A stretch of 64,000 nt of DNA from a virus: the IMG/VR virus record IMGVR_UViG_3300045988_139610. One strand, 5' to 3'. The translations under genes were made by a program, and so were the position numbers. This document shows positions 12,860 through 58,881 of the stretch, in pieces. The notes beneath the pieces are model-generated. The model was not told where the DNA came from and did no database searches. It saw nothing but the letters and a program-made list of their open reading frames with translations. Position 1 is the stretch's first letter. Every line of letters starts with the position of its first letter.

Positions 12860-12875
12860 ATTTATTTCTCCTTTA

Positions 12876-24667: not shown

Positions 24668-25279
24668 TTAATTATTTTCACCATCATTTACCATTATATT
24701 GTTTAATTTAATATATCCTTTTTCTTTATTATCATATATTCTTAATTTACCATAATCATCTTGATGTCTTCCATATAATAACAATTGAATTATTTTCTCT
24801 TTTGATAATCTATCTCTAGTGCCAACTAATTTTCCACATTCATTACAATATATATGATAACGGTGATAATCTTTTTCTAATTCTAGATTAGGTGTAAAAA
24901 ATTCATCATCATTCACTTTGTATTTACAGCAAAGTTCTTTCCATTCTTTATAATGACTTGTATTTCTACCATGTTTCTTGTCAGACAATAAATGGATTAA
25001 TTCATGTTGGATAATATGTTTAACCGTATCATTATCATATGAGTTAATACGTTTACTAAATTTAAATTTCACTGGTGATATAAACTCACCACTTCTCTTA
25101 TATTTGCCACTAAAATAGCCCATGCTTGATTTAAGTCTACCGTCTATTGATATTGGAATAATATCAATTACATCACCAATTGTTTCTCTATCATCTTTAT
25201 CCATTTTTAATACAAAATCCTTCATGTAATTTCTTATTTCGTCTGATGTCCAGGTCTTATTAACACTTTTCCCCATCAT
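24668..25279 (-). CDS. SprT-like Zn-metalloprotease domain protein
   Basis: HELIHLL (HExxH) plus the downstream CNECGK Zn-ribbon-like motif. Paralogue of 26373-26942. Confidence 0.65.
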   Translation of the reverse strand: MMGKSVNKTWTSDEIRNYMKDFVLKMDKDDRETIGDVIDIIPISIDGRLKSSMGYFSGKYKRSGEFISPVKFKFSKRINSYDNDTVKHIIQHELIHLLSDKKHGRNTSHYKEWKELCCKYKVNDDEFFTPNLELEKDYHRYHIYCNECGKLVGTRDRLSKEKIIQLLLYGRHQDDYGKLRIYDNKEKGYIKLNNIMVNDGENN

Positions 25280-25297: not shown

Positions 25298-25414
25298 TTA
25301 TTAATTATTTTTACTATCATTGCCAAGAGCTTTTAAAAAATTTATTAATTATTTTTATTAATTATTTTGATAATCTTTTTAGCAGGTTTTAAAGGATTAC
25401 CTGCAAACCTTTTA
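25298..25414 (-). repeat. Intergenic module copy 1 (16-mer / ATGATAGTA / GCTCTTG.CA / 16-mer x2 / hairpin with loop AUCCUUUAAA)
   Basis: Shares (T)TG(T/C)CAAGA(G/A).TTTTAAAAAATTTATTAATTATTTTTA with 25916-25972, 28263-28346 and 29611-29677. Hairpin GCAGGT..ACCTGC at 25392-25414. Confidence 0.6.
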
Positions 25415-25921: not shown

Positions 25922-25992
25922 GAGCTTTTTAAAAAATTTATTAATTATTTTTACTATCATTTCAAGAGCTGGAAGGTTATTTAAAACCCTCC

Positions 25993-26292
25993 TTAATTAC
26001 CATTCTTTTTCATATATTCAAAATCTCTAATTCTATATTTTATTTCATATTCCATACCACACAATGCATCTGAAATCTTATCTGTTAAATCTTCAATTGT
26101 ATTTTCTTTGTCAATTTCGACTATATCCTCTAATAAATAATCTATCATAATTAATTTTTTTTCTATTTTATTACGTTCATCATGAGTCAAATATCTAGCA
26201 GTAGCATATATGCATTTTTCTTCTTGTTCGTATTCACAATTACCTCCCCACATCTTATTATAATCACAATTTACACATACATTTTTATCCAT
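25993..26292 (-). CDS. Hypothetical Cys-containing protein
   Basis: Start moved to ATG 26292 (MDKNVCVNC). Confidence 0.45.
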   Translation of the reverse strand: MDKNVCVNCDYNKMWGGNCEYEQEEKCIYATARYLTHDERNKIEKKLIMIDYLLEDIVEIDKENTIEDLTDKISDALCGMEYEIKYRIRDFEYMKKNGN

Positions 26293-26372
26293 AATAATTA
26301 TCATCTCCTTATATAAACAATATCATATTTAGCCATCATTGACAAGAGTTTTATTAATTATTTTTCAACTAA

Positions 26373-26942
26373 TTATAAAGAAAACTTAAATTCAATATCT
26401 TTGCCTAATTTGTTATCATATATTCTTATATTTCCATCATCAGTTCCATGTTTACTCATGTATATTAATTTCATCACTTGATTTTGTGATAATCTTGAAT
26501 ATCCTCCTAGATATTTACCACATAGCTTACAATATACATGATATCTATAAGCATCCTTTTCAATATCAATATCATTTTCAAAATACTGATTATCTGGAAT
26601 ACCATATTTATTACAATAAATTTTCCATATTTTATTATGTTCCATATCTTTTTTATATTTTAAATTAACAAGTAAATGCATTAATTCATGCCCTATAACA
26701 TGTTTAATTTCATCATCATTATAATAGAATAATCTTTTACTGAATTTGAATTGCACAGCATTAATTACCTCTTTTGTTTCAATATCTATACTCATCGATA
26801 CATAAGCCATATTTTTAGTCAATCTACCATCTATTTTTATAGGTAATGTTTCTACATCTTTTAACACTATATCCCTATCTCTAGCAGTCATCTTATTAGC
26901 AACTTCTAACATATAATCTCTTATTTTATTTTCATCCCACAT
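26373..26942 (-). CDS. SprT-like Zn-metalloprotease domain protein (paralogue)
   Basis: HELMHLL plus CKLCGK. Confidence 0.65.
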   Translation of the reverse strand: MWDENKIRDYMLEVANKMTARDRDIVLKDVETLPIKIDGRLTKNMAYVSMSIDIETKEVINAVQFKFSKRLFYYNDDEIKHVIGHELMHLLVNLKYKKDMEHNKIWKIYCNKYGIPDNQYFENDIDIEKDAYRYHVYCKLCGKYLGGYSRLSQNQVMKLIYMSKHGTDDGNIRIYDNKLGKDIEFKFSL

Positions 26943-27033
26943 AGTAACACCTCCAATTAATATATTTTATTATCATTCCAAGAGCTTAAGAGGATTAATT
27001 AACCCTCTTATTAATTATTTCTTACTTAAAATA

Positions 27034-27558: not shown

Positions 27559-27702
27559 ATTTACCACCCCTTTATTTTTATTATACTTAAAGTATAACAT
27601 ATTTAATTTTAAATTACAATAACTTTTTAATAATTTTATTAATTATTTTTATTATCTTTTCTATATGATAGTATAGATATATCTATACTATCATATAATG
27701 GT

Positions 27703-28262: not shown

Positions 28263-28346
28263 TATTAATTATTTTTACTATCATTGTCAAGAATTTTTAA
28301 AAAATTTATTAATTATTTTTATGCTGGTTTTTAAAGGATAAACCAA
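28263..28346 (-). repeat. Intergenic module copy 2
   Basis: ttattaattatttttactatcattgtcaagaatttttaaaaaatttattaattatttttatgCTGGTTTttaaaggatAAACCAa. Confidence 0.6.
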
Positions 28347-28359
28347 TAAACCTATAATA

Positions 28360-29214
28360 TTATCCTATTAATTTATATTGATTTTGTAAATTTTCAAATA
28401 CTATTAAAATATCTGAATCTCTTTTAGCATACCAACATTTTTTATTTCTATTCCATCTAAATCCAAATTGTTTCAACATATTTCTAAAATCTTCTGATGG
28501 TTTACCTTCAAAATATAATTCTATTCCATTTTTTTCAAGGTTTTCTATTATATCAAATTTATTATTATTTTTATTATTTTTTTCTTGTCTTTTAGATTTT
28601 TTAACTTTTTCAACCACTTTGACTGTTTCATCATAATTACCAAGGTTTAAAGATGGATAAAAATTAACGTCAAAATAATCTATTTGATAGTCACAATCAG
28701 AATATCTATATTGATTTATTATTTCCCAAACTCTTATAACTAATTCTTTGCCATATATTGATAATTCTGGATATTCGATATATGGTGATATATCATAATT
28801 GATTATATTTTTATCATCATTTGCATAAACACTTTTAGGAGTTTCTTTTACAATTACAGTTAAACTACAACCTCCAGAAAATTCATGTTTTGTAACACTA
28901 AATTTACAATCTGGAAATTCTTCTTTTAATTGTTTTCTAACTAATTTTGCTATTGTTTTAATATCTAAATCTCTATTATATTTGTCACCCTTCCAACCAT
29001 TTGCAGTATAAAATTCATTTCTTGTGCTTTCTGCTGTTTCCTCTGTTTTTATATTATCTCTATTTTTCCAAATAGGAAATAACATATCATATTCATTATT
29101 GACAGCTTTCATTGTTTCAGCGTCTCCACCTCTATCTGGATGATGTTTAAAAGCTAATTTTTTAAATTGTTTTTTTAAGTCTTCTAAAGAGTTTACATTT
29201 TTAAAATATTTCAT
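28360..29214 (-). CDS. J-domain (DnaJ-like) protein with C-terminal GFRWN..K.WY motif
   Basis: KKLAFKHHPDRGGD contains the HPD tripeptide. The C-terminal FGFRWNRNKKCWYA resembles DUF5710-type tails (recollection). Confidence 0.65.
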   Translation of the reverse strand: MKYFKNVNSLEDLKKQFKKLAFKHHPDRGGDAETMKAVNNEYDMLFPIWKNRDNIKTEETAESTRNEFYTANGWKGDKYNRDLDIKTIAKLVRKQLKEEFPDCKFSVTKHEFSGGCSLTVIVKETPKSVYANDDKNIINYDISPYIEYPELSIYGKELVIRVWEIINQYRYSDCDYQIDYFDVNFYPSLNLGNYDETVKVVEKVKKSKRQEKNNKNNNKFDIIENLEKNGIELYFEGKPSEDFRNMLKQFGFRWNRNKKCWYAKRDSDILIVFENLQNQYKLIG

Positions 29215-29277
29215 ATCATTTGTCCCCTTTCAATTATCTTATTAATTATTTTTAAGAGCTGGAAGGGATTAATTCCC

Positions 29278-29553
29278 TTACCATTTTTCATAATATTCAT
29301 CATCTCCATATCTATCTAAATAAGTGTTTTTAGCAGTCATTTTAAAATCATATTCATTGTCTACATCACTTATTTCTATTATATATTTTTTTCTGTTTAA
29401 AGATACTTGTACGTCGGTAGCTCCAAAACATAAGTTGTCTAATACTTTTTTAATGTTGTTATAATTTAATTTATCCAATTGTTTATCCCAACAACCTATT
29501 ATAAAACCTTCTTTATTTAATTTTTCTTCAATTCTTTGTTTATTTGTTTTCAT
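29278..29553 (-). CDS. Hypothetical protein
   Basis: 91-aa ORF with SD AAGGGGTTGA. Confidence 0.5.
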   Translation of the reverse strand: MKTNKQRIEEKLNKEGFIIGCWDKQLDKLNYNNIKKVLDNLCFGATDVQVSLNRKKYIIEISDVDNEYDFKMTAKNTYLDRYGDDEYYEKW

Positions 29554-29610
29554 AATATCAACCCCTTTTATTTATTATTATGCTTTAATTGTATCACACT
29601 TTATTTTAAT

Positions 29611-29677
29611 TTGTCAAGAGCTTTTTTAAAAAAAATTATTAATTATTTTTACGACTGGTTTTTAAAGGATAAACCAG
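29611..29677 (-). repeat. Intergenic module copy 3
   Basis: ttgtcaagagcttttttaaaaaaaattattaattatttttacgACTGGTTTttaaaggatAAACCAGT. Preceded in gene sense by a 7-codon micro-ORF, MRKSYII*. Confidence 0.55.
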
Positions 29678-29757
29678 TAAACCTTTTTATATTTATATAA
29701 TATATGATTTTCTCATAACTTAATCACTCCTTAAATTTATTAATTATTTTTATATTT

Positions 29758-29799
29758 CCCTAATTAATAGGGCTTGAGCTAGAGGACTTTAAGTCCTCT
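29758..29799 (-). promoter_or_regulatory. Cassette junction h: palindrome CCCTAATTAATAGGG / TTGAGC / hairpin AGAGGACTT-t-AAGTCCTCT
   Basis: Read directly from the sequence. The hairpin abuts the stop of 29799-30023. Confidence 0.5.
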
Positions 29800-30023
29800 T
29801 ATTTCCAATAACCTATAAAATACATATTATTATTTTCTAAAAAGTCTATAAAGTCTAAGATAAATTTATCTTTGTCTTTTACTTGCACTCCTCCTACTAT
29901 ATACAACTCCTTACCTTCATAGTCATCATATAATAATATACCCTCATAATCTAGTAAATAGTCTACAACTAAATTATCATCTAATGTATCTAAAACATAA
30001 CCATTAAAATTTAGCCATTCCAT
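29799..30023 (-). CDS. Hypothetical acidic protein
   Basis: Start moved to ATG 30023 (MEWLNF). Confidence 0.5.
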   Translation of the reverse strand: MEWLNFNGYVLDTLDDNLVVDYLLDYEGILLYDDYEGKELYIVGGVQVKDKDKFILDFIDFLENNNMYFIGYWK

Positions 30024-30105
30024 AATTACCACTCCTTTATTTACTTATACTTAATATTATATACTATCATTTAAGATAAGTCAATAATTTTATTAATATT
30101 ATTCA

Positions 30106-30148
30106 CTATCATTTTGATAGTATTGAGCAAAGGAGAAAATTATTCCCC
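30106..30148 (-). promoter_or_regulatory. Cassette junction a: CTATC-ATTTT-GATAG / TTGAGC / hairpin
   Basis: A second imperfect ACTATC..GATAAG lies at 30063-80, inside a TTGACT-N17-TATAAT promoter. Confidence 0.5.
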
Positions 30149-30652
30149 TAATTTACTTCTTATTTCTCTACAGTCTTGACAAATACCGTCGTTGTTGTTT
30201 AATTGTTTTCCACAAAAACCACAATAACTGGTATTTGTATATTCAACTGTATAATTATTATTAGTATCATTTTCATTGCTATTGTTAGTATTATTAGTAT
30301 TGCCATTGTTAGTATTAGTATTACTATTACTATAATTTTTATTATCATTACTATAATTTTTATTACTATTATTATAATTTTTATTACTATTATTGTATGT
30401 AGATTTTATTGTAGTTGTTTTTACAACATAATTGTTTTTACTATCATTATTGTTGTCTTCTTGTTGTCGTTCTTCTGGGTCTACTTCTTTTTCTTCTTTT
30501 ACTGTTGTTTTTTCCATATAAACATATTGTTTTTTACTATCATTTACAGTATTATCTTTTATGCTATCAAGTGTAAAAGCATGTACAAGCAATCCCGTAA
30601 TTAACATACAATTAACCATTGCAACGCCTATAAACCCTATATATTTTTTCAT
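30140..30652 (-). CDS. Membrane-anchored Asn/Ser-rich repeat protein with C-terminal zinc ribbon
   Basis: N-terminal TM helix (FIGVAMVNCMLITGLLV), NSNKNY(N/S) tandem repeats and CGFCGK..CQDC. Confidence 0.55.
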   Translation of the reverse strand: MKKYIGFIGVAMVNCMLITGLLVHAFTLDSIKDNTVNDSKKQYVYMEKTTVKEEKEVDPEERQQEDNNNDSKNNYVVKTTTIKSTYNNSNKNYNNSNKNYSNDNKNYSNSNTNTNNGNTNNTNNSNENDTNNNYTVEYTNTSYCGFCGKQLNNNDGICQDCREIRSKLGE

Positions 30653-30682
30653 AATCTTATCACTCCTAATTAATATAATTTA

Positions 30683-30728
30683 CTATCATTCTGATAGCTA
30701 TGAGCTAAAGGGTTTAAAATAAACCCTT
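30683..30728 (-). promoter_or_regulatory. Cassette junction b: CTATC-ATTCT-GATAG / TGAGCT / hairpin AAGGGTTT-aaaa-TAAACCCTT
   Basis: Read directly from the sequence. Confidence 0.5.
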
Positions 30729-30944
30729 GTTGTATTCTTCTAGTGTATGAGGGAAGTCGTATGCATACGGTCTATCTAATATATCATTTAATATTTCTTG
30801 TTTTATGCTATCGGTATCTACCCCTAATAAATCTCCTTCACTGTCATATACTAATTGATACTCTTGTTCTCCAGAAGTCCATTCATAAGTTTCTGTACTA
30901 TCATTTAATTTAACTATTCTTCCATCAAATTTTTGTATTTTCAT
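30714..30944 (-). CDS. Hypothetical acidic protein
   Basis: 76-aa ORF with SD AGGAGTGA. Confidence 0.5.
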   Translation of the reverse strand: MKIQKFDGRIVKLNDSTETYEWTSGEQEYQLVYDSEGDLLGVDTDSIKQEILNDILDRPYAYDFPHTLEEYNKGLF

Positions 30945-30974
30945 AACTTAATCACTCCTATTTAATATTATTTA

Positions 30975-31017
30975 CTATCATTCTGATAGTTTTGAGCAAA
31001 GGAGAAAATTATTCTCC
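30975..31017 (-). promoter_or_regulatory. Cassette junction c: CTATC-ATTCT-GATAG / TTGAGC / hairpin GGAGAA-aatta-TTCTCC
   Basis: Read directly from the sequence. Confidence 0.5.
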
Positions 31018-31356
31018 TAATATAATTTTTTTACTGTTTTCTATATATTTTTTATCATCATTAGTGGCTTGATATTTTATTTCTTCTAAATAAACTTCCA
31101 TAACTTCAACATTAACTCTTTTACCATCATTGTATTTTTGAATTATATCGTTAATATTTTCATAAGTACTTGATTTTACACTACTTAATTCATTCTTCAT
31201 ATAATAAACTTCATTTTCTATATTTATCCTATCGTTGTAAAGTCCTAATTTGTCCAATAGATTTTTATAAAATCTAATATCCTTATCCATTAGTTGTTCT
31301 ATTTGATATTGATATCCATATTCTTCTAATAATATATTTTTTTCTTTTTTAGTCAT
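31009..31356 (-). CDS. Hypothetical protein
   Basis: 115-aa ORF with SD AAGGAGTGGA. Confidence 0.5.
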   Translation of the reverse strand: MTKKEKNILLEEYGYQYQIEQLMDKDIRFYKNLLDKLGLYNDRINIENEVYYMKNELSSVKSSTYENINDIIQKYNDGKRVNVEVMEVYLEEIKYQATNDDKKYIENSKKIILGE

Positions 31357-31396
31357 TTAAATCCACTCCTTTAATTCATTATATTTAATATTATAT

Positions 31397-31442
31397 ACTA
31401 TCATTTAAGATAGTCTTGAGCTTAGAGGGATTATTTCCCTCT
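31397..31442 (-). promoter_or_regulatory. Cassette junction d: ACTATC-ATTTAA-GATAGT / TTGAGC / hairpin AGAGGGA-ttatt-TCCCTCT
   Basis: Read directly from the sequence. Confidence 0.5.
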
Positions 31443-31445
31443 TAT

Positions 31446-31769
31446 TTATGCATCAATACCATTTTCAATTGTATTTTGTAATTCTAAAATATATTCTAAT
31501 ATTGTATTTCTGTTCACTCTTTTACTATCTTTTATATAATCCTTTAATTCTTCTATTACTCTTTGTGCATTATATAATTGACTTTTTGCATCATCAAATC
31601 TTAATTCATAATGTTCTTTTTCATATTTATAATATTGCATATCTTTTTTAACTTCATTTACTTCTTCATTATGAAGCCCTTCCATAGCTTCGTATACATC
31701 ATCAGTAACATTACCTTGTAAAGATTCCATATTATTAATTATATTCCCGTTGTTTAAATAATACATCAT
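31446..31769 (-). CDS. Hypothetical protein
   Basis: 107-aa ORF with SD AGGAGTGA. Confidence 0.5.
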   Translation of the reverse strand: MMYYLNNGNIINNMESLQGNVTDDVYEAMEGLHNEEVNEVKKDMQYYKYEKEHYELRFDDAKSQLYNAQRVIEELKDYIKDSKRVNRNTILEYILELQNTIENGIDA

Positions 31770-31875
31770 AACTTAATCACTCCTATTTATTAATTATTTT
31801 TATGATTATATAATATCATGTTTTATTATTATTGTCAATAGTTTTATTAATTATTTTCGCCATCATTGCTTAATA

Positions 31876-32040
31876 CTATAAGTAGTATATTGTATTAAGC
31901 AAATCAATAATATCAACTACATTAACGTTGAATGCATAACCTATACAGTCAACTACATACATCAATGCTATGGATATTTGATTTTTAAATATAACAATTC
32001 CTAATACTAACACTAATACAAATAACATTTTATTTTTCAT
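31876..32040 (-). CDS. 54-aa small membrane protein
   Basis: MKNKMLFVLVLVLGIVIFKN... SD AAGGAGA. Below the ORF-track cutoff. Confidence 0.45.
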   Translation of the reverse strand: MKNKMLFVLVLVLGIVIFKNQISIALMYVVDCIGYAFNVNVVDIIDLLNTIYYL

Positions 32041-32072
32041 AATCTTATATCTCCTTTTTATTAATATAATTT

Positions 32073-32113
32073 GCTATCATTCGATAGCTTGAGCTAGAGG
32101 AATAAATTCCTCT
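32073..32113 (-). promoter_or_regulatory. Cassette junction e: GCTATC-ATTC-GATAGC / TTGAGC / hairpin AGAGGAAT-aa-ATTCCTCT
   Basis: Read directly from the sequence. Confidence 0.5.
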
Positions 32114-32258
32114 ATTTAATAATTATTTTTCCTTTGCCTTCATATATTTTGTTATATAACATTTTAGTTCTTATTGCAAGACCTTTTGACTTTACTTTTG
32201 CTAAAAATTCTTCGCCTTCTTCTGTTACTAAATATAAGCTATAATATACTTTCTTCAT
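32112..32258 (-). CDS. 48-aa hypothetical protein
   Basis: MKKVYYSLYLVTEEGEEFLAKVKSKG... SD AAGGAGTGA. The TAG stop lies inside the hairpin stem. Confidence 0.45.
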   Translation of the reverse strand: MKKVYYSLYLVTEEGEEFLAKVKSKGLAIRTKMLYNKIYEGKGKIIIK

Positions 32259-32293
32259 AACTCATCACTCCTTAAATTTATTAATATTATATG

Positions 32294-32335
32294 CTATCTT
32301 TTTGATAGTCTTGAGCTAGAGGACTTTAATCCTCT
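32294..32335 (-). promoter_or_regulatory. Cassette junction f: CTATC-TTTTT-GATAG / TTGAGC / hairpin AGAGGA-ctttaa-TCCTCT
   Basis: Read directly from the sequence. Confidence 0.5.
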
Positions 32336-32603
32336 ATTTATAATTTTCTATTAATTCTTTTTTATATTCTTCGGTGATATAGTAATTTAAATGTTCACCT
32401 AATTCAATGTTACAATTATAATACATATATTTACTACATTCATTTTGAAACTTGTCGTATGAATTAGCTACTATCTTATAGGGACTTATCCATATATTAT
32501 TTGTTCTTACTTTACAAGGTAATACATATATTTCAAAGTCTTTACTGTTTTTAACTTCTCTTCTTATTATTGCCTTCGCTTGATTAAATTTAATTTTTAA
32601 CAT
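32334..32603 (-). CDS. Hypothetical protein
   Basis: Start moved to ATG 32603 (MLKIKF). Confidence 0.5.
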   Translation of the reverse strand: MLKIKFNQAKAIIRREVKNSKDFEIYVLPCKVRTNNIWISPYKIVANSYDKFQNECSKYMYYNCNIELGEHLNYYITEEYKKELIENYK

Positions 32604-32637
32604 ATTTATCACTCCTAAGTTTTATTAATTATTTTTA

Positions 32638-32689
32638 CTATCATTGGATAGCATTGAGCTGGAAGGACTAGAATATAACTTCTAAGTCC
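32638..32689 (-). promoter_or_regulatory. Cassette junction g: CTATC-ATTG-GATAG / TTGAGC / bulged hairpin GGACTAGAA..TTCTAAGTCC
   Basis: Read directly from the sequence. Confidence 0.45.
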
Positions 32690-33111
32690 TTGTTATATCT
32701 TTTCATATTCAAAGTTGCGTGAGTGTCGTCAACGCTATTGTAGTAAACTGTTATTATTTTCCCTGTTTTTGGTTCAACGACAACCTTCATGACACAATTA
32801 ACTGTTTTTCCGTCAATATCTACTGGAAATGTTTCCCAACTTTCTAATAATATTCTTCCATTCCTTCTAGTGTAATTATACTCTATGATATCGTATGCTC
32901 CATCTTTTAACATTGAGCAAATAACCTTCATATTGTAGCTAACACTTGATTTTTTTCTTAAATGATAGCTTGCATATATTTTTGTATGTAGCATGTTGTT
33001 TATTGCTATAATGCATTTTTGATAGTCATCACCCTTGAATTGGCTCATATATTTTTTTTCTTGTCCTTCTGTTTTTCTTACTATACCTTTTTTTATTTCA
33101 CCTTTTAACAT
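32668..33111 (-). CDS. Hypothetical protein
   Basis: 147-aa basic ORF with SD GGGGAGGA. The C-terminal VVVEPKTGKIITVYYN weakly resembles DUF4258-type toxins. Confidence 0.45.
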   Translation of the reverse strand: MLKGEIKKGIVRKTEGQEKKYMSQFKGDDYQKCIIAINNMLHTKIYASYHLRKKSSVSYNMKVICSMLKDGAYDIIEYNYTRRNGRILLESWETFPVDIDGKTVNCVMKVVVEPKTGKIITVYYNSVDDTHATLNMKRYNKDLEVIF

Positions 33112-33152
33112 TTTTATATCCTCCCCTGTTTATTAATTATATTTGTTAATTA

Positions 33153-33587
33153 TTAAATAAATCTTTTTATATAATTTATAACTCCTTTACTTGTTTTTCT
33201 TGTTATTCTGTTTTTATATTTATTTTCATCATTATTATATTTATCAGCCATGTTTTTATTGTATGTATCCAATAAATATCCCTCACCGTCTATAAGTACG
33301 TTCACTATATAATTATTTCCTTCTATGTATACATATGTATACTCGTCATAATTATCTACATCTATTTCAGCATTTACTTTTTCATTTATTAAATTTATTA
33401 ATTCTTTAGTTTTTATTTCTATTTCTGTTAATTCTTCTGTTATTAAGTCTTCTTCTGAAACTATTGCTCCACATCTTGTTATACCTTTATACATGAAAAA
33501 TACTTCAGTTTTTCCTTCTTCATATGGTTTTGATTCTATTACTTTTACTATTTTGTTATCTATTTTGGCTTTTGTTATTTTTAACAT
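33153..33587 (-). CDS. Hypothetical protein
   Basis: Start moved to ATG 33587. Its own TTGACA-N17-TATTAT promoter lies at about 33630-33658. Confidence 0.5.
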   Translation of the reverse strand: MLKITKAKIDNKIVKVIESKPYEEGKTEVFFMYKGITRCGAIVSEEDLITEELTEIEIKTKELINLINEKVNAEIDVDNYDEYTYVYIEGNNYIVNVLIDGEGYLLDTYNKNMADKYNNDENKYKNRITRKTSKGVINYIKRFI

Positions 33588-33831
33588 AATCACCACTCCT
33601 TTAATTTATTAATTATTTTTATTATGTTATAATAATAGCATATATTTTTTATTTTGTCAAATATTTTTATTAATTTTTTTTAAATACTCAATAGAGGATA
33701 CCAGGTATTTAATTTTATGAAGTGACTTTATTTCTTATGATTTTACAAGGTTGCTAATTGATTTGATTATGCTTTAATTATAATATAGGTAAGTGCTATT
33801 TGTCAAGTACTTTTTATTAATTATTTTTTTT

Positions 33832-33920
33832 GTTACTTAATGAACGATTGGGCGTTCTCCCTTGTCTAATATATTTTTTTGTTGCTTGATGGTTGATGGG
33901 CAACCTCCCTTGTCTAATAC
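33832..33920. repeat. Two tandem 49-nt units, each a 5-bp hairpin followed by CTCCCTTGTCTAATA
   Basis: Unit A is GAACG-attggg-CGTTC and unit B is GGTTG-atggg-CAACC. The stems differ but stay complementary. A minus-strand TTGACA-N17-TAACAT promoter at 33931-33959 reads into them. Confidence 0.55.
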
Positions 33921-34157
33921 TTATATTTTAATGTTATCACTTGTTGTTTATTTTGTCAACAACTTTTTTAAATTTATTTTTTCTAAAAAAATATATAGAT
34001 AGAAAAATGATAAATAAAAACGCTACAAGTTATTAATATCAACGGTTTAAGCTATATTTTAGATAGTTACAATAAAAATAAAAGTTTATATATAAATAAA
34101 TTTTTATAGCTAAATACTTTAATATTTTAAGTAAAAGATAGATTCCACGTGCAATTA

Positions 34158-34420
34158 TTAAAGTATTCGGCAAGTTTTACTTTAAAAAGTGATAGTAGAA
34201 AAAAGGGTCACTTTATTTATTTAAGTTTACGCCCTCTAAATAATTAATTCTTTACATAAAAAATAATTTATATATTAAAATATATTTGTATCATATTAGA
34301 TAATTCTTACATAAAAAATAATTTATATGGTGAAAGCAAGTGTCGAATACTTTATATAAGTAAAGTGCATTGTGTCGAATACTTTACTTATTGATAGTAG
34401 AAAATAGGGTCACAAATTTT
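34158..34420. repeat. Composite direct/inverted repeats (CGAATACTTTA; TGATAGTAGAAAA(A/T)AGGGTCAC; TAATTCTTTACATAAAAAATAATTTATAT)
   Basis: Each sub-repeat is seen twice or three times between 34158 and 34420. Confidence 0.55.
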
Positions 34421-34695
34421 ATTAAAGTGGATAGTACAATTTACTTATTTTAGTAAAGTCATAAAAAAGTATTTTATCGTACAAAATTATTTTTATGGAA
34501 TACTCCATTTTAAAATTGATTTTAAAGTTTAATAATTAAAGTTGGCATTAAATTAACAAGTTTAACTTAATTAAATAAAGCAGAATGATAATATCCCCTT
34601 TAAAATGATAAGGTAAATCAAGGATTAGCTTTATTTAATTAGGGAAAATATAAAGATTGTTTTATATTGTAAAGTTATTATAAAATACTGTAATC

Positions 34696-35245
34696 GTTGA
34701 TATTACTAGCTTTAGAGTAATTCGACAAATATATGCATGGTTTATATAATAAAGAGAACAAAAGAGAATAGCTTAATTAGTTAATATAAATTAACATTAT
34801 GCTTTATTATCTTAATTATCATAGGTATATTTATCAACTATCTAGCATTATCAAGCATTACAGGACTTGGGAAAATATATGGGAAAACAATAGAAGTGTT
34901 GATATAACTAGGATTGAATACCATACATAGGTATACACAAATAGAAGAAATAGAAGAATGTAGCAGTTTCAACGGTTTCACGCTTTACAATATACCCACT
35001 ATAGGTATAGGATACAGTTATTGCAACGGTTGTATGGTATTGGGTAATAAAGGTAAACTGTGAAACAATTATAGGTAAACACTTTAGGAAAATAAAGGAA
35101 AATAGATAAATTACTTTAGATTATTAGGAAGAATTGAATAGATGGTAAAAAATGTAAAATGAAGGAATTTAGAAAAATTTTCCTTGTGGATAACTTAGAT
35201 TAAGAAAAAAAGTGTATAAGTGTATGAAAGCGTTGATATTACTAG
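34696..35245 (+). repeat. Iterons GTTGATAT(T/A)ACTAG
   Basis: Copies at 34696-34709, 34898-34911 and 35232-35245. Partial copies lie at 34033-34043 (reverse complement) and 35513. An inverted copy lies at 9938-9950. Confidence 0.6.
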
Positions 35246-35404
35246 ATTATATAGACTTATAGGTTGTTAGCTTGAGATGTAGTCGGAAATGTAATTGTAA
35301 GTATTGGTAATACTTGCTTTCGTATATATATTTATATACTATTAATAGGCTTGTGGATAACTAGCAAAATATTTGTGGATAACTAGGGAATATAGTGTTG
35401 ATAA
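35185..35404 (-). promoter_or_regulatory. DnaA-box cluster (TTATCCACA on the minus strand)
   Basis: TGTGGATAA at 35185-35193, 35352-35360 and 35374-35382. One-mismatch TGTTGATAA at 35396-35404. All are in the same orientation. Confidence 0.65.
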
Positions 35405-35973
35405 CCACGTCACCTGGACAAGTTGTCAACTTTAAAAAATTAAGAATGTACGATTAATTAATACTTAATCGCACTTTTTGGAGAAGGAATTTTTTTTCAA
35501 GAGGCAAGAAATGTTGATATTCCAACATCTAGGGGGTGGTATCATATTCGGAGGGGCTTGACAAAAATTTTATTCTGTGTAGTAGTTTACCAACTATGTG
35601 TCGTAAAAAATACCGAATTAGATTTTTAGCAATTCCTACAAGCTCCTATATTTGCAACATAGCCATATTTGCAAATCAAGAATACTAGGAAATTAATACG
35701 TTTTTGTTATACTTCATTTTGCCTAATTTAAAAGTATTAAAATTAAATGTTTCTATGTTGTGCTTATTCTCGGGAAATGGTATCATAAATATGTTATTTT
35801 ACGTTTATAAATTAGTACTTGATTTAATGGGAATTTAATAGTATATTTAATATATTGGAAATAAATGGGAAAATATGGGTTTAATCAGATATAATACACC
35901 GCCATTACGCATTAATTTACCTATATAAACCCATTAGTTTTACCGTATCAAACCATTGAAATACCAAATAAAA

Positions 35974-36010
35974 GAGTGTGTAGTACAAGCAATAGTTGTA
36001 TCACACACTC
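35974..36010. terminator. Terminator hairpin downstream of 36020-36613
   Basis: GAGTGTGT..(loop)..CACACACTC, with a T-run on the minus-strand side. Confidence 0.6.
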
Positions 36011-38485: not shown

Positions 38486-39442
38486 TTAAAAAATACTTGT
38501 CTTTATAAATAAGTCAGTATAATACTTAATTTTATTATTTAACACAGCTTTAAAGTAAGGATATATATTATAATCTATTTTATCTACATTAAATTTAGAT
38601 AATGTTATATTGACTGATTCAATAAAAGACTGTTTCATATCTTCATACGTGAAATCTATTAACTCAAAATCTTTTTGAAGAGACGACATACAATTATTTG
38701 ATATTAAACTCTTATTAGGAATGTATGACAATGGTGAAATTTGTTCAGTTTGTTTCTTTTTAAAATATACTCTTTTATCTAAATCTTTCACATGAAATGT
38801 TATAGATTTTACACTTCGTCCCTTTTTATTTTCAGTATATGATAATTCAAACATTCCAGTATTATTTAATTCCTTTTTAGCTCGTTGAAGAACATTTCTT
38901 TTAAAATCAGCATACAAATTATATTTGTTGTTTAACATTAATAAATCTTTTAATTCGTCTAGTTCATATGTTATATTTTCTTTTGTATTACTCCATAATC
39001 TAAGAAGGTCATATAATCTTTGGCTATATATTGATTTTAAAGTTAAAAATATTTTCATATTAATAGGTGTATAAGCTTTGTAATTCATAAGAAGATGATA
39101 AACTTTATCAATGACAACTATTTTAAATAAATCTTCTTTTTTATTATATTCATACCCAGCTATAATACTATATTTACAGCTCCACTCACCATCTTCTCTA
39201 AAATATATTTTTTCATCTAGCATATTATCTAATACTTTTTTAATACCTGGAACTGTTTTCTGTGTTTTATTTGAAATAAGATTTTGAAATTCTTGTTTGC
39301 TTATATAGCAATATGCATTGCCAGACTTAGCCTTCTGAAGTTTATACAATATGAAAATAAATATATTATTATGCATGAGAGATATGTTATATCTAGCACT
39401 AACTATCGTATTATTTTTCATAAGTATTTGATTTTTACTCAT
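38486..39442 (-). CDS. Rep_3-family plasmid replication initiator
   Basis: The N-terminal NTIVSARYNISLMHNNIFIFILYKL fits the Rep_3 signature (N.L..ARY.LS..E..l). Iterons lie upstream. Confidence 0.65.
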   Translation of the reverse strand: MSKNQILMKNNTIVSARYNISLMHNNIFIFILYKLQKAKSGNAYCYISKQEFQNLISNKTQKTVPGIKKVLDNMLDEKIYFREDGEWSCKYSIIAGYEYNKKEDLFKIVVIDKVYHLLMNYKAYTPINMKIFLTLKSIYSQRLYDLLRLWSNTKENITYELDELKDLLMLNNKYNLYADFKRNVLQRAKKELNNTGMFELSYTENKKGRSVKSITFHVKDLDKRVYFKKKQTEQISPLSYIPNKSLISNNCMSSLQKDFELIDFTYEDMKQSFIESVNITLSKFNVDKIDYNIYPYFKAVLNNKIKYYTDLFIKTSIF

Positions 39443-39502: not shown

Positions 39503-39647
39503 CCCTTATTTTAACATATTTAAAGTTATTATGAGTAATTAAGGAAATAAAATGCCCTTAAAAACACATATTTATAAACGAAATGATACTTAATTTAACA
39601 TATATATCCCTTAAAAACACATATTAAGACCTTTAAAACTCATATAT
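39503..39647. repeat. Iterons CCCTTAAAAACACATAT upstream of rep
   Basis: Exact copies at 39555-39571 and 39608-39624. Degenerate copies at 39503-39519 and 39630-39647. Confidence 0.6.
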
Positions 39648-39743
39648 AATATGATGGACACAAGAAATATCAATAGAAGTAGCTTTCTTAAATACTATTA
39701 AATACTAAATTAAATACTATATATATTAAAAATAATATAATTC

Positions 39744-40733: not shown

Positions 40734-40793
40734 AAAATGGATTGTATAAAAAATATAAGTATTATCAAAAATAATTAATAAGGAGAGGATAAT

Positions 40794-44648: not shown

Positions 44649-44667
44649 TAAAATAGGGGTGGATAAA

Positions 44668-58597: not shown

Positions 58598-58850
58598 AGA
58601 ATAAATACTACAACAGCCCGTATATCGAGCAATCGGTATAGGACACAACTTGAATTGCAGGTAATGGGTAAAGCTCTACACCAAAGCGGATAGTGAAAAC
58701 TAAGACGTAACGGTACGAAAGTAGAAAAAACGTAGAGATGGTGCATGGTTAAATCCTAAACACTAGATGATTAAATTCATTACAATCCCTGTTCATGCAG
58801 GTAAGCGTCCCTGTTTTAATATTAATTATTTTGTTTAAAAGGTTAAAATA

Positions 58851-58881
58851 ATAGGTAATTTTATCAATAGTTATGTTAATA
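58851..58881 (+). promoter_or_regulatory. Bipartite element ATAGGTA-N16-TGTTAATA (copy F) inside the capsid intron
   Basis: AATAGGTAATTTTATCAATAGTTATGTTAATACAATAATATGAAGGAGGTGG lies directly upstream of the intron ORF. Confidence 0.55.

What the first reader, a model, noticed from the sequence alone, without database searches (positions are those of the whole stretch)
29250..33600. Array of about 10 mono-cistronic mini-cassettes, each bounded by an AGAGG..CCTCT hairpin, a GCTCAA box and a CTATC-N4-6-GATAG inverted repeat
Seen in sequence: between 29.2 and 33.6 kb, small ORFs of 48-170 aa each are separated by a repeated junction. In gene sense the junction reads stop codon - hairpin (AGAGGGA..TCCCTCT, AGAGGAAT..ATTCCTCT, AGAGGA..TCCTCT, AGAGGACTT..AAGTCCTCT, GGAGAA..TTCTCC, AAGGGTTT..AAACCCTT) - (A/T)AGCTCAA - N2 - CTATC-N4-6-GATAG - (T)ATAAT/AAATTAT - ATTAA - SD - ATG. 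I located eight junctions: 29758-99, 30106-48, 30683-728, 30975-31017, 31397-442, 32073-113, 32294-335 and 32638-89.

The hairpin stems pair an SD-like AGAGG with an anti-SD-like CCTCT, and the stop codon is often inside the stem. The GCTCAA box occupies the place where other junctions have GCTC-TTGACA, so the -35 is degenerate. The inverted repeat fills the promoter spacer, but its loop length varies from 4 to 6 nt. That fits a hairpin (RNA or ssDNA) better than a rigid dimer operator.

Inference: this is a co-regulated early-gene cassette array adjacent to the origin. It resembles anti-defence islands in plasmid leading regions with structured ssDNA promoters, and the hairpin promoters of phage N4. 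None of the cassette proteins has a recognisable family.
Basis: partly seen in the sequence, partly recalled or inferred. Interest (0 to 1): 0.75.

Follow-up and report, generated by a model that had tools for sequence, protein, structure and literature searches.

The report
Shuffled single-gene cassettes with two-hairpin junctions
A roughly 134-kb phage-plasmid from the human gut keeps a row of small orphan genes next to its replication region, each separated by the same repeated hairpin-box-hairpin junction; related genomes have swapped these genes at the junctions, as T4-like phages do with their promoter/stem-loop cassettes.

Summary
All eight junctions sit at the stated coordinates. CTATC-N4-6-GATAG occurs 7 times against 0.18 expected, and only between 30.1 and 32.7 kb. 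Each copy follows a gene-end stem-loop (-8 to -12 kcal/mol, no U-tract) and a GCTCA(A/T) box.

The window is half of a ~134-kb human-gut phage-plasmid with a Rep3 replicon, distantly related to phiCD211. Twelve related genomes keep the same junction grammar. Each carries a different set or order of about 20 orphan cassette families between the same flanking genes, and the mosaic breakpoints lie inside the junction modules. This is a PeSL-like hyperplastic cassette region.

The junction's 3' part is a local variant of a genome-wide, gene-co-oriented 13-mer, AAATAATTAATAA (54 exact copies). That 13-mer resembles the SAS/ESAS and stoperator motifs of mycobacteriophages.

The inverted repeat behaves as a hairpin. 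Relatives carry alternative complementary arms, variants that keep G.U pairing on the sense strand, and variable loops. The repeat is intact in 27/31 junctions without a sigma-A promoter and in only 3/28 with one.

My best reading is an RNA punctuation module of the RNase-Y operon-maturation type: a 3' hairpin, a single-stranded cut site, a 5' protective hairpin, then an AU-rich leader and SD. This is inferred, not shown. The main rival is a protein site at -35-less promoters. The N4 and ssDNA-promoter analogy is not supported.

The parts
32604..32691 (-). Junction 1, short form. Gene-end stem-loop 32663-32691 (stop of 32668-33111 lies inside it), GCTCAA 32654-32659, hairpin H2/IR 32638-32651, canonical 13-mer 32622-32634, SD, ATG at 32603.
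32259..32336 (-). Junction 2, short form. Stem-loop 32317-32336 (TAG stop is the first stem bases), GCTCAA 32311-32316, IR 32294-32308, CATATAATATTAAT, SD, ATG at 32258.
32041..32114 (-). Junction 3, short form. Stem-loop 32095-32114, GCTCAA 32089-32094, IR GCTATCgaatGATAGC 32073-32088, AAATTATATTAAT, SD, ATG at 32040.
31770..31875 (-). Boundary of a different type. No hairpin or box. 13-mer 31844-31856, consensus sigma-A promoter TTGACA-17-TATTAT 31810-31838, second 13-mer 31787-31799, SD, ATG at 31769.
31357..31442 (-). Junction 5, short form. Stem-loop 31424-31442, GCTCAA 31416-31421, IR 31398-31413 (6-nt loop), TATATAATATTAAAT, SD, ATG at 31356. The same gene family has a full sigma-A promoter in relatives L130, L134 and L135.
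30945..31018 (-). Junction 6, short form. Stem-loop 31000-31018 (TAA in the loop), GCTCAA 30992-30997, IR 30975-30989, AAATAATATTAAAT, SD, ATG at 30944.
30653..30728 (-). Junction 7, short form. Stem-loop 30708-30728, GCTCAT 30700-30705, IR 30683-30697, AAATTATATTAAT, SD, ATG at 30652.
30024..30149 (-). Junction 8, long form. Stem-loop 30131-30149, GCTCAA 30123-30128, IR 30106-30120, 13-mer-like GAATAATATTAATAA, sigma-A promoter TTGACT-17-TATAAT 30056-30084 with AAATGATAGTA just 5' of the -10, SD, ATG at 30023.
29554..29799 (-). Junction 9, composite. Stem-loop 29781-29799, GCTCAA 29774-29779, alternative-arm hairpin CCCTAttaatTAGGG 29758-29772, 13-mer 29737-29749, SD plus 7-codon remnant ATGAGAAAATCA... 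29693-29716. The remnant's first 12 nt match the start of a 103-aa cassette family of relatives (read by eye, not aligned), so it may be a deletion scar. Then a conserved stem-loop, 13-mer 29636-29648, and GCTC plus sigma-A promoter 29588-29621.
29215..29283 (-). Junction 10, minimal form. Stem-loop 29260-29283, GCTCTT 29254-29259, 13-mer 29239-29251, SD, ATG at 29214 (284-aa DnaJ/LPD29 protein).
25966..27010 (-).
29278..33111 (-). The cassette ORFs: 32668-33111 (147 aa, phrog_1905, conserved left flank), 32334-32603 (89), 32112-32258 (48), 31876-32040 (54, hydrophobic), 31446-31769 (107), 31009-31356 (115), 30714-30944 (76), 30140-30652 (170, N-terminal hydrophobic segment, N/S-rich, C-terminal Cys pairs), 29799-30023 (74), 29278-29553 (91, conserved right flank).
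33632..33806 (-). Two consensus sigma-A promoters (33777-33806 TTGACA-18-TATAAT; 33632-33660 TTGACA-17-TATTAT with TG), each preceded by the 13-mer. They point into the array and are the likely source of the first polycistronic transcript.

Best explanation
WHAT IT IS (shown). This is the hyperplastic orphan-gene region of a ~134-kb human-gut phage-plasmid. Every cassette is one small ORF. Every boundary is built from the same modules, in this order:
- H1, a stem-loop that embeds the upstream stop codon and has no U-tract.
- A G(C/T)TC box.
- H2, the CTATC..GATAG hairpin.
- An A/T-rich 13-mer-like tract, which is a variant of the genome-wide AAATAATTAATAA.
- A strong SD and ATG.
A 'long' version inserts 13-mer + TTGACA-17-TATAAT between H2 and the SD. 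The repeated modules are the places where related genomes have exchanged, gained and lost cassettes. The junctions therefore act as portable homology, as PeSLs do in T4-like phages.

HOW IT WORKS (inferred).
- The array is transcribed from a few consensus sigma-A promoters as short polycistronic RNAs.
- The short junction is an RNA punctuation mark. H1 stabilises or attenuates the 3' end of the upstream cistron.
- The unstructured G(C/U)UCAA(GA) linker is cut by an endoribonuclease, either host RNase Y type or element-encoded.
- H2, 0-3 nt from the box, protects the new 5'-monophosphate end of the downstream mRNA from 5' exonuclease.
- The AU-rich tract plus SD loads ribosomes.
- Each orphan gene thus gets context-independent expression wherever recombination puts it.
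- A junction that owns a promoter makes a 5'-triphosphate transcript and no longer needs H2, which then decays.

Sub-confidences: cassette shuffling at composite junctions 0.85; H2 acts as a hairpin rather than a duplex protein site 0.6; the processing and stabilisation mechanism as stated 0.35-0.4.
For: Identity of the element:
- Portal, terminase and protease on the right arm.
- Rep3, ALP actin, Xer recombinase and ligase.
- Portal 32% identical to phiCD211-type phage-plasmids.
- Identical proteins on human-gut contigs up to 133.6 kb.

Conservation and shuffling:
- 11 IMG/VR relatives of 133-140 kb, plus L142, keep the box, the repeat and the 13-mer.
- Between the same flanks, every one of the 12 genomes compared (the window plus the 11 IMG/VR relatives) has a different cassette string.
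- The same gene has a short junction in one genome and a long one in another.
- Similarity breaks after GCTCAA, in or after GATAG, after the 13-mer, after the -10, and before the SD.
- A possible deletion scar lies at 29693-29716 (a 12-nt match read by eye).

H1:
- Free energy -7.8 to -11.8 kcal/mol.
- Compensatory arm changes within gene families, e.g. GGGTTT/AAACCC vs GGGCTT/AAGCCC, and GGAGAA/TTCTCC vs AGAGGATT/AATCCTCT.
- No T-run follows it, while true terminators with T-runs exist in the element.
- None of 31 distinct repeat contexts follows a T-run terminator.

H2:
- Alternative complementary arms occur at the same position: GTCATCA/TGATGAC (three double changes), CCTTCA/TGAGGG, ACCCTA/TAGGGT, AGTATT/GATACT.
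- Most single-arm variants keep G.U pairing on the sense strand.
- Stems of 6 bp or more occur in 32 of 62 distinct segments, against 3.3 expected.
- 91% of cells are paired, three pairs change on both sides, and the covariation score is 0.201 against 0.134, with 0 of 500 shuffles reaching it.
- Loops and box-to-arm gaps vary while the arms stay fixed.
- The repeat is perfect in 27/31 short junctions and 3/28 long ones.

Precedent from the literature:
- B. subtilis RNase Y operon-maturation sites (cggR-gapA, glnRA) have an unstructured AU-rich cut site with a G/A preference, a downstream hairpin that stabilises the cleaved product against RNase J1, and an AU-rich tract after the hairpin (PMC11780869).
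- In the S. aureus sae operon, a downstream duplex guides the cut 6 nt upstream (PMC5449607).
- PeSL precedent: PMC2839356 and PMC4122927.
Against: - There are no transcript data, so cleavage, 5' ends and hairpin function are all inferred.
- The major arm pair CTATC/GATAG is conserved as sequence in most copies, which a protein site would also explain.
- The right arm extends into a conserved AATGATAGTA that also occurs without a left arm (GCTCTTGAAATGATAGTA+13-mer). It also occurs inside sigma-A promoter spacers just 5' of the -10, where an RNA role is not obvious.
- A -10-like hexamer (TAATAT/TATAAT/AATAAT) lies at a fixed 4 nt after GATAG, so short junctions could be -35-less promoters.
- The covariation signal is modest, and junction copies are related by descent and gene conversion. 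Sense beats antisense only slightly (32 vs 25 stems of 6 bp or more).
- H2 is weak, at -3.8 to -7.7 kcal/mol.
- Seventeen contigs carrying the identical flanking protein show the same array, so shuffling is not rapid.
Confidence: 0.5

Rival explanations
1. The inverted repeat is a duplex-DNA binding site for an element-encoded dimeric regulator, an activator or a repressor. It acts at -35-less promoters and makes the cassettes a regulon. Each short junction is then a real promoter: a -10-like TAATAT/TATAAT hexamer 4 nt after GATAG, with the repeat centred near -24. This resembles the 11 late promoters of phage-plasmid P1, which carry a 9-bp inverted repeat bound by Lpa, or the ESAS repeats of Cluster K mycobacteriophages.
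For: - The major arms are conserved as sequence, and the right arm is flanked by a conserved AATGATAGTA.
- The offset from GATAG to a good -10-like hexamer is fixed. Repeat-linked 13-mer variants (..ATATTAAT) make better -10 hexamers than the canonical 13-mer.
- The GCTCAA(GAC) box occupies the place of GCTC-TTGACA.
- Intergenic AATGATAGTA sites are confined to 24.6-32.7 kb, like a regional regulon.
- The element encodes Rha, Bro and ANT regulators and two sigma-like proteins.
- P1 precedent: PMC10695390. ESAS precedent: PMC3203893.
- The repeat decays once a full sigma-A promoter is present, which also fits this model.
Against: - Four different complementary arm pairs occupy the same position in one array and lineage. 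One protein would not read them all.
- Single-arm variants are wobble-compatible transitions.
- Half-site spacing varies by 2 bp and box-to-repeat distance by 3 bp.
- The predicted start would fall on or 1-3 nt before the SD in the shortest junctions.
- No Lpa-like or other assignable DNA-binding partner was found in about 70 window proteins scanned.
Confidence: 0.27
2. The junction elements have no function of their own. Short junctions are promoters that lost their -35 by deletion between the two ATGATA(G) repeats of the long form. Sequence identity is kept by recent common descent and gene conversion, and the genes are simply read through.
For: - Short and long forms interconvert at the same gene.
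- The long form carries ATGATA(A/T/C)T upstream and ATGATAGTA next to the -10, so a deletion between them yields exactly the short form.
- Junction copies are clearly homologous, and mosaic breakpoints lie in every module.
Against: - Among about 21 distinct short variants, loops and gaps differ while both arms stay complementary.
- Independent arm replacements preserve pairing.
- H1 covaries within gene families although it overlaps coding sequence.
- The grammar persists in a lineage whose flanking protein is only 57% identical to the window's.
Confidence: 0.1
3. The hairpins are recombination sites folded in single-stranded DNA, integron-attC-like. The sense strand is the lagging-strand template. 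A site-specific recombinase, for example the Xer-type enzyme at 23044-23949, moves the cassettes.
For: - The cassette array has one ORF per unit and a structure-conserved, sequence-variable hairpin after each ORF.
- The hairpins lie on the strand that is transiently single-stranded during leftward replication (inference).
- A tyrosine recombinase is conserved at the far side of the region.
Against: - Breakpoints are spread over five different modules rather than one crossover point.
- Stems are 5-9 bp, far shorter than attC sites, with no conserved R/L core.
- The recombinase is an ordinary Xer/phage-integrase type and sits 6-10 kb away.
- Arrays are stable across 17 contigs.
Confidence: 0.05
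4. The repeats are single-stranded-DNA hairpin promoters, of the plasmid leading-region Frpo type or the phage N4 virion-RNA-polymerase type. They drive early anti-defence genes on DNA entry.
For: - The position is near the replication region.
- The hairpins are small, and some fold with 3-nt loops such as GAA.
- The cassette proteins are orphans.
Against: - No conjugation or relaxase genes and no giant RNA polymerase are seen in the 64-kb window. Only about half of the genome was examined.
- A tailed-phage genome enters the cell double-stranded.
- Frpo elements are long (hundreds of nt) and rebuild -35/-10 duplexes, which these 14-20-nt hairpins do not.
- Arm sequences are not fixed, as N4 promoters require.
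- The wobble variants favour RNA.
Confidence: 0.03

Closest known systems
PeSLs (promoter-early stem-loops) of T4-like phages: mobile regulatory cassettes that mediate modular shuffling (PMC2839356, PMC4122927)
   Same: - Short composite intergenic repeats made of a stem-loop, an AT-rich tract and a promoter.
- They flank orphan genes and are concentrated in a hyperplastic region between conserved genes.
- Insertions, deletions and replacements between relatives have their breakpoints inside the motif.
   Different: - Different virus lineage and host type: a Firmicutes-type siphovirus-like phage-plasmid rather than a T4-like myovirus.
- Most junctions here lack a complete promoter and instead carry a second hairpin.
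- The stem-loop overlaps the stop codon and lacks a U-tract or G/C runs.
- A G(C/T)TC box and a genome-wide 13-mer are part of the unit.
- Terminator activity and mini-circles were shown for PeSLs but are untested here.
SAS/ESAS (start-associated sequences and their extended form) of Cluster K mycobacteriophages (PMC3203893; function still unknown in 2025, PMC12699233)
   Same: - A 13-bp asymmetric motif in one orientation.
- It lies just upstream of gene starts, mostly in the non-structural part of the genome, and sometimes contains the upstream stop codon.
- A subset has an inverted repeat with a variable spacer immediately upstream.
   Different: - The sequence is unrelated (GGGATAGGAGCCC contains the SD; here the 13-mer lies 0-8 nt upstream of the SD).
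- The copy number is several-fold higher here (54 exact in 64 kb).
- Half of the copies here sit 4-8 nt upstream of a -35 instead of an SD.
- ESAS arms are 17 bp and their variants do not support pairing. Here the arms are 5-8 bp and their variants do.
RNase Y operon-mRNA maturation sites of Firmicutes (cggR-gapA and glnRA in B. subtilis, PMC11780869; saePQRS in S. aureus, PMC5449607)
   Same: - An intercistronic, unstructured A-rich stretch, often with a GA step (GCTCAAGA).
- It is followed within a few nt by a hairpin and then an AU-rich tract.
- The hairpin is needed only for the processed (5'-monophosphate) product, which matches the decay of H2 where a promoter is present.
   Different: - Known sites are single and idiosyncratic, with a weak consensus.
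- Here one module is repeated at least 8 times per genome with a conserved box, is paired with an upstream 3' hairpin, and doubles as a recombination substrate.
- No cleavage has been shown here.
Stoperators of Cluster A mycobacteriophages (L5 gp71; PMC9283540). This comparison concerns the 13-mer, not the hairpins.
   Same: - A 13-bp asymmetric site in dozens of copies.
- Copies lie in short intergenic gaps and next to promoters.
- Orientation is strictly correlated with the direction of transcription.
   Different: - The sequence and host are unrelated.
- No repressor has been identified.
- The site lies 4-8 nt upstream of the -35 rather than over it.
- Binding is not testable here.
Late promoters of phage-plasmid P1 (Lpa-dependent; PMC10695390)
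   Same: - A phage-plasmid with many short or monocistronic units.
- The promoter class has a -10 element but no -35, and carries a short inverted repeat in its place.
   Different: - No Lpa homologue was found.
- The arms are replaceable and wobble-tolerant.
- The spacing is variable.
- The genes are replication-proximal orphan genes, not late structural genes.

Membership tests
PeSL-type mobile regulatory cassette | Composite intergenic repeat combining a stem-loop with a sigma-70-type promoter and an upstream AT-rich tract | tested here: inconclusive
   The stem-loop and AT-rich 13-mer are always present. A complete TTGACA-17-TATAAT is present only in 'long' junctions (28 of 59 classified; in the window 30056-30084 and 29588-29617). 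Short junctions have a -10-like hexamer only.
PeSL-type mobile regulatory cassette | Concentrated in a hyperplastic region of orphan genes between conserved genes | tested here: met
   Twelve genomes show 12 different cassette strings between the same flanking families. The cassettes have no Pfam or PADLOC family. Homologues of the one cassette searched (115 aa) occur only in this lineage.
PeSL-type mobile regulatory cassette | Breakpoints of insertions, deletions and replacements between relatives fall within the repeat | tested here: met
   Similarity ends after GCTCAA, at GATAG, after the 13-mer, after the -10 or just before the SD. A possible deletion scar lies at 29693-29716.
PeSL-type mobile regulatory cassette | The stem-loop terminates transcription, and recombination between repeats yields mini-circles | not testable with these tools
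   In silico, the stem-loops lack a U-tract in gene sense, so canonical intrinsic termination is not expected.
SAS/ESAS | A 13-bp asymmetric motif in a single orientation, a few nt upstream of start codons, in the non-structural region | tested here: inconclusive
   68 of 70 matches are on the gene strand. 23 of the 53 sense-strand exact copies lie 0-8 nt before an SD, and about 20 instead lie before a -35. Copies are sparse in the structural genes after 47.7 kb. The sequence is unrelated to GGGATAGGAGCCC and does not include the SD.
SAS/ESAS | Imperfect inverted repeats with a variable spacer directly upstream of a subset of the motifs, whose variants do not support pairing | tested here: not met
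   The repeat and variable spacer are present, but here the variants do support pairing.
RNase Y-type operon maturation site | Endonucleolytic cut in an unstructured A/U-rich intercistronic stretch, giving a 5'-monophosphate product | not testable with these tools
   Only the anatomy fits: linker, then a hairpin within 0-3 nt, then an AU-rich tract (PMC11780869).
RNase Y-type operon maturation site | The downstream hairpin is maintained by base-pairing (compensatory and wobble changes tolerated) | tested here: met
   Alternative complementary arms and G.U-compatible variants occur. 91% of cells are paired and the covariation score exceeds all 500 shuffles. The caveat is that the copies are related to one another.
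Intrinsic (rho-independent) terminator | GC-rich stem-loop followed by a U-tract in the sense of transcription | tested here: not met
   The stems are followed by (A/T)AGCTCAA. The scan calls them terminator-like only on the opposite strand. Canonical examples with T-runs exist elsewhere in the element.
Phage N4 hairpin promoters / plasmid leading-region ssDNA promoters | Fixed hairpin sequence read by a virion RNA polymerase (N4), or a long ssDNA fold that recreates -35/-10 (Frpo), with ssDNA entry | tested here: not met
   The arms are replaceable and the hairpins are 14-20 nt. No large polymerase or conjugation gene is seen in the window. The other half of the genome was not examined.
Integron cassette array | attC sites with conserved cores, an IntI integrase, a single Pc promoter, and precise crossover | tested here: not met
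   There is no IntI-type integrase, only a Xer/phage-integrase type at 23044-23949. Breakpoints are dispersed and the array has internal promoters.
P1-type late promoter | A -10 element plus a conserved inverted repeat replacing the -35, bound by Lpa | tested here: inconclusive
   The geometry fits, with the repeat centre about 24 nt upstream of the inferred start and a -10-like hexamer 4 nt after GATAG. No Lpa-like protein was detected, and the arm sequences are not fixed.

The most novel reading that the evidence does not exclude
This phage-plasmid lineage uses a genome-wide 'gene punctuation code'. A strictly oriented 13/16-mer (TAAAAATAATTAATAA) stands before almost every early or accessory gene. 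In the hyperplastic region a two-hairpin processing module is added. Both would be read by a dedicated element-encoded factor, such as an RNA-binding or translational regulator, an endoribonuclease, or one of the two sigma-like proteins. Any orphan gene dropped between two marks would then become an autonomous, insulated and co-regulated expression unit. That would be a natural plug-and-play cassette system combining PeSL-like mobility with SAS-like start marking.
Probability: 0.2. Interest if true: 0.8.

Novelty: new variant of a known kind. Interest (0 to 1): 0.55.

Why it matters
Composite repeat junctions that both express and shuffle orphan genes have been documented mainly in T4-like phages. 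Start-associated 13-mers with upstream inverted repeats have been described in mycobacteriophages, where their function is still unknown after 15 years.

This element shows both features together, in an uncultivated and apparently common human-gut phage-plasmid. It also has enough natural variants (short and long forms, and four arm types) to design clean experiments.

If the RNA-punctuation reading is right, it explains how a mobile element can give newly acquired genes reliable, context-independent expression. It would also offer compact natural insulator parts for Gram-positive synthetic biology. If the protein-site reading is right, it defines a regulon of establishment-phase orphan genes, which are candidates for anti-defence or exclusion functions.

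Tried and rejected
Searches that found nothing:
- Megablast of 29-34 kb against the phage and plasmid collections gave no match.
- Both genome-contig scans (protein patterns of 32668-33111, and the 21-mer GATAGTAAAAATAATTAATAA) gave no relative, only chance single hits. The host therefore stays unidentified.
- Rfam gave nothing at gathering threshold on the whole window. The permissive threshold on 29-36 kb gave only chance miRNA hits.
- PADLOC on the ten cassette proteins gave nothing.
- The P1 genome paper (PMC523184) is not held.

Ideas considered and dropped:
- GCTCAA as a degenerate -35, or as the -35 of an ECF-type sigma promoter. Its distance to GATAG and to any -10-like hexamer varies by 3 nt.
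- The 13-mer as a mere AT-rich composition effect. phiCD211 at 26% GC has no 13-mer above 4 copies in 35 kb, against 43 here.
- A Fur-box reading of ACTATCA/TGATAGT. The orientation is reversed and the key base differs.
- A small upstream ORF starting at the ATG of AATGATAG. It has no SD, and one junction lacks the ATG.
- Antisense small RNAs or type I toxin-antitoxin pairs. The hairpins look terminator-like on the plus strand, but no credible antisense -35 exists, and the T-richness there follows from the A-rich sense strand.
- The SD/anti-SD look of the H1 arms as functional. Other H1 stems (ACTGCTTAT.., ACCGTCTAT.., ACTGGATT..) are not SD-like, so this is most simply purine-rich coding sequence plus its complement.
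- The 36-nt perfect palindrome at 27662-27697 as a master operator. It was not found in the relatives' loci.

Method failures:
- The first terminator-finder script failed because of regex greediness. It was redone.
- The gapless breakpoint extension is confounded by indels, so it was used only qualitatively.

Full report
**1. What the window is**

GC content is about 25% throughout. Genes run leftward from about 34 kb and rightward from about 40.7 kb, and GC skew switches at 34 kb.

The right arm encodes a portal (phrog_2739), a terminase-like protein and a prohead protease. The centre and left arm encode the following:
- a Rep3 initiator (38486-39442), with iteron-like repeats just upstream (39505-39740);
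- an FtsK-like ATPase, an actin-like partition protein, a Xer-type recombinase and an ATP-dependent ligase;
- Rha, Bro and ANT regulators;
- two SprT-like proteins and a DnaJ/LPD29 protein;
- two tandem paralogous sigma-70/ECF-like sigma factors.

The portal is 32% identical to that of the ~131-kb phiCD211/phiCDIF1296T phage-plasmids of C. difficile. Identical proteins lie on human-gut metagenome contigs of up to 133.6 kb. Nothing similar exists in the phage or plasmid nucleotide collections, or in the GTDB species representatives scanned. The window is therefore about half of an uncultivated gut phage-plasmid.

**2.

On the minus (gene) strand, each of eight boundaries between 29.55 and 32.7 kb reads as follows:
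- stop codon inside or abutting a stem-loop;
- 0-3 nt;
- GCTCA(A/T);
- 0-3 nt;
- CTATC-N4-6-GATAG;
- an A/T-rich tract such as TAAATAATATTAAAT;
- a strong SD;
- ATG.

The inverted repeat occurs 7 times against 0.18 expected, and nowhere else in 64 kb. The eighth junction has CCCTAttaatTAGGG instead.

The gene-end stem-loops fold at -7.8 to -11.8 kcal/mol, with z-scores of -2.7 to -4.3. The inverted repeats fold as RNA at -3.8 to -7.7 kcal/mol.

Eleven of the 16 sense-strand GCTC tetramers on the whole left arm sit 0-3 nt after such a stem-loop. The hairpin-GCTC unit therefore extends to 25.97 kb.

**3.

The A/T-rich tract is a variant of a 13-mer, AAATAATTAATAA.
- It has 54 exact copies, and 70 copies at one mismatch or fewer, against 7.5 expected.
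- 68 of the 70 lie on the gene strand of their arm.
- The 16-mer TAAAAATAATTAATAA occurs 28 times on the left arm.
- Of the 53 sense-strand exact copies, 23 end 0-8 nt before an SD and about 20 lie before a TTGACA-type -35 (17 within 4-16 nt, 3 more behind a T/A run plus GCTC); 10 of these are 5-6 nt away. Several contain the stop codon of the upstream gene. Copies are sparse among the structural genes.
- phiCD211, with the same base composition, has no comparable word.

**4. Relatives**

A pattern scan and a protein-anchored scan of IMG/VR gave 11 contigs of 133-140 kb. A more diverged one came from ENA. All keep the 13-mer, the box (GCTC, or GTTC in the diverged lineage), the stem-loops and the repeat.

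Between the same two flanking families (window 32668-33111 and 29278-29553), each of the 12 genomes compared (the window plus the 11 IMG/VR contigs) has a different complement and partly a different order of about 20 small gene families.

The junction has two forms. The short form is as described above. The long form has 13-mer + N4-5 + TTGACA-N17-TATAAT inserted between the repeat and the SD. The same gene family can have either form in different genomes.

Where two genomes share one neighbour but not the other, similarity ends inside the junction: after GCTCAA, at GATAG, after the 13-mer, after the -10, or just before the SD. A 7-codon remnant at 29693-29716 begins with 12 nt that match the start of a 103-aa cassette family found in relatives. 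I read this match by eye, and it may be a deletion scar.

This is the pattern described for PeSLs in T4-like phages (PMC2839356, PMC4122927). Shuffling is not fast: 17 contigs with the identical flanking protein share the window's arrangement. Homologues of one cassette (115 aa) exist only in this lineage.

**5. What the stem-loops are**

The gene-end stem-loop (H1) differs in sequence from gene to gene. Within a gene family it changes by compensatory substitutions although it overlaps coding sequence:
- GGGTTT/AAACCC vs GGGCTT/AAGCCC;
- GGAGAA/TTCTCC vs AGAGGATT/AATCCTCT;
- ACTGCTTAT.. vs ACTGCCTAT...

H1 is never followed by a T-run in gene sense. The scan calls these structures terminator-like only on the opposite strand. 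The element does use canonical terminators with T-runs elsewhere, and none of 31 distinct repeat contexts follows one. Consensus sigma-A promoters occur only at 33777-33806, 33632-33660, 31810-31838, 30056-30084 and 29588-29617. Runs of three or four short junctions lie between them. The units are single-gene, but probably not transcriptionally monocistronic.

**6. What the inverted repeat is**

Three results argue for a hairpin (H2) rather than a rigid duplex operator.

First, relatives carry other complementary arm pairs at the same position:
- GTCATCA/TGATGAC, with three double changes, in five genomes;
- CCTTCA/TGAGGG;
- ACCCTA/TAGGGT, whose arms CCCTA/TAGGG also form the window's 29758-72 palindrome;
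- AGTATT/GATACT.

Most single-arm variants (CTGTC, CTATT, ATTGTC) keep G.U pairing on the sense strand.

Second, the statistics favour pairing. Of 62 distinct box-to-13-mer segments, 32 have stems of 6 bp or more, against 3.3 expected with a maximum of 9 in 500 shuffles. Sense folds slightly better than antisense, 32 against 25. On a MAFFT alignment of 32 variants, 91% of cells pair, three pairs change on both sides, and the covariation score is 0.201 against 0.134 with 0 of 500 shuffles reaching it. The copies are related to one another, so this is supportive rather than conclusive.

Third, the repeat is perfect in 27/31 short junctions but only 3/28 long ones. It is maintained only where no promoter intervenes before the next gene.

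Three observations cut the other way.
- The right arm is embedded in a conserved AATGATAGTA. This sequence also occurs without a left arm, and inside sigma-A promoter spacers.
- A -10-like hexamer lies a fixed 4 nt after GATAG.
- Intergenic AATGATAGTA sites are confined to 24.6-32.7 kb.

**7. Mechanism**

I commit to an RNA punctuation model, at roughly 0.35-0.4 for the mechanism itself.
- Polycistronic transcripts from the few sigma-A promoters are cut in the unstructured G(C/U)UCAA(GA) linker.
- H1 protects the new 3' end.
- H2, 0-3 nt from the box, protects the new 5'-monophosphate end.
- The AU-rich tract and SD then load ribosomes.

The anatomy matches RNase Y operon-maturation sites of Firmicutes. 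Those have an AU-rich unstructured cut site with a G/A preference, a downstream hairpin that stabilises the cleaved product against RNase J1, and a contributing AU-rich tract after the hairpin (PMC11780869; PMC5449607). The model also explains why H2 decays where a promoter supplies a 5'-triphosphate transcript.

All of this is inference from sequence; no transcript data exist. The main rival (about 0.27) is a protein site at -35-less promoters, as in P1 late promoters (PMC10695390) or as proposed for ESAS (PMC3203893). Relic, integron-like and ssDNA-promoter readings are less likely, for the reasons given under the rival explanations.

**8. The 13-mer**

Its function is unresolved. Its features are those of SAS in Cluster K mycobacteriophages (13 bp, asymmetric, one orientation, before gene starts in the non-structural genes, a subset with an upstream inverted repeat) and of Cluster A stoperators. 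Its position 4-8 nt upstream of the -35 is also that of an UP element. The element's own sigma-like proteins are further candidates for reading it.

**9. Verdict**

The cassette array, the conserved junctions and the hairpin-rather-than-operator remark stand. The N4/ssDNA-promoter analogy and transcriptional monocistrony do not.
- This is a new variant of a known kind: PeSL-like mobile regulatory junctions in a new lineage, with a different internal design and an SAS-like genome-wide start mark.

Noticed in passing
whole window, e.g. 1181-1193, 2041-2053, 12873-12885, 29239-29251, 40769-40781, 63822-63834: The 13-mer AAATAATTAATAA has 54 exact copies (70 at one mismatch or fewer, against 7.5 expected). 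68 of the 70 lie on the gene strand of their arm. About half sit directly before an SD and half 4-8 nt before a -35. Some contain the upstream stop codon. It is absent from phiCD211, which has the same GC content. Its function is unknown (SAS-like, stoperator-like or UP-element-like).
   Followed up: partly
12876-13451 and 13529-14119 (minus strand): Two tandem paralogous (37% identical) sigma-70/ECF-type sigma factor genes. One ends in ..KNN-stop encoded by the exact 13-mer, the other in a one-mismatch copy (AAATAATGAATAA). A third weak sigma-region-4-like HTH lies in the 396-aa protein at 44659-45849. Their promoters are unknown.
   Followed up: partly
27662-27697: A perfect 36-nt palindrome, TATATGATAGTATAGATATATCTATACTATCATATA, lies between two paralogous genes. 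It carries the ATGATAGTA motif in both arms. It was not found in the relatives' loci.
   Followed up: partly
33600-36000: A 2.4-kb stretch without long ORFs lies between the array and the FtsK-like gene. It holds two 48-nt tandem units (33825-33919, ..CCCTTGTCTAATA), each behind a consensus promoter, plus several other 18-50-nt direct repeats. It could encode small RNAs or hold partition or replication sites.
   Followed up: no
39505-39740: Iteron-like direct repeats lie just upstream of the Rep3 gene (CCCTTAAAAACACATATT x2, a 21-nt unit x2.4, TTAAATACTA x3). This is the probable origin.
   Followed up: no
50730-51220, 58590-58880, 59617-59720: GC-richer non-coding segments that look structured lie among the packaging and head genes. 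The last two are 4-5 kb downstream of an HNH/homing-endonuclease gene (54922-55914). They could be intron remnants or non-coding RNAs. There is no Rfam match at gathering threshold.
   Followed up: no
6933-7520 and 12128-12859 (minus strand): Two pentapeptide-repeat proteins (DUF7666 + Pentapeptide_2; Pentapeptide + DUF5758). These are possible DNA mimics.
   Followed up: no
24668-25279, 26373-26942, 28360-29214 (minus strand): Two SprT-like metalloprotease-domain proteins and a DnaJ + LPD29 + DUF5710 protein lie directly next to the cassette array. These domains are typical of the 'polyvalent proteins' of mobile elements.
   Followed up: no
29650-29690, about 28320-28350, about 25370-25400 (minus strand): A further repeated stem-loop element, GGTTTACTGGTTTATCCTTTAAAAACCAGT, is followed by (C/A)(G/A)TAAAAATAATTAATAA. 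It occurs three times in the window and also in relatives.
   Followed up: no
31876-32040 (minus strand): A 54-aa strongly hydrophobic peptide (MKNKMLFVLVLVLGIVIF...) is conserved in all relatives. A type I toxin or a small membrane exclusion protein is possible. No antisense RNA could be supported.
   Followed up: partly
L128, L129, L134, L135 and L137 (relatives), between the array and the 91-aa flank gene: Relatives carry a conserved ~500-600-bp non-coding insert that begins with a canonical terminator (GACTGGAGTTTTATCCAGTCTTTTTT). The window lacks this insert.
   Followed up: no
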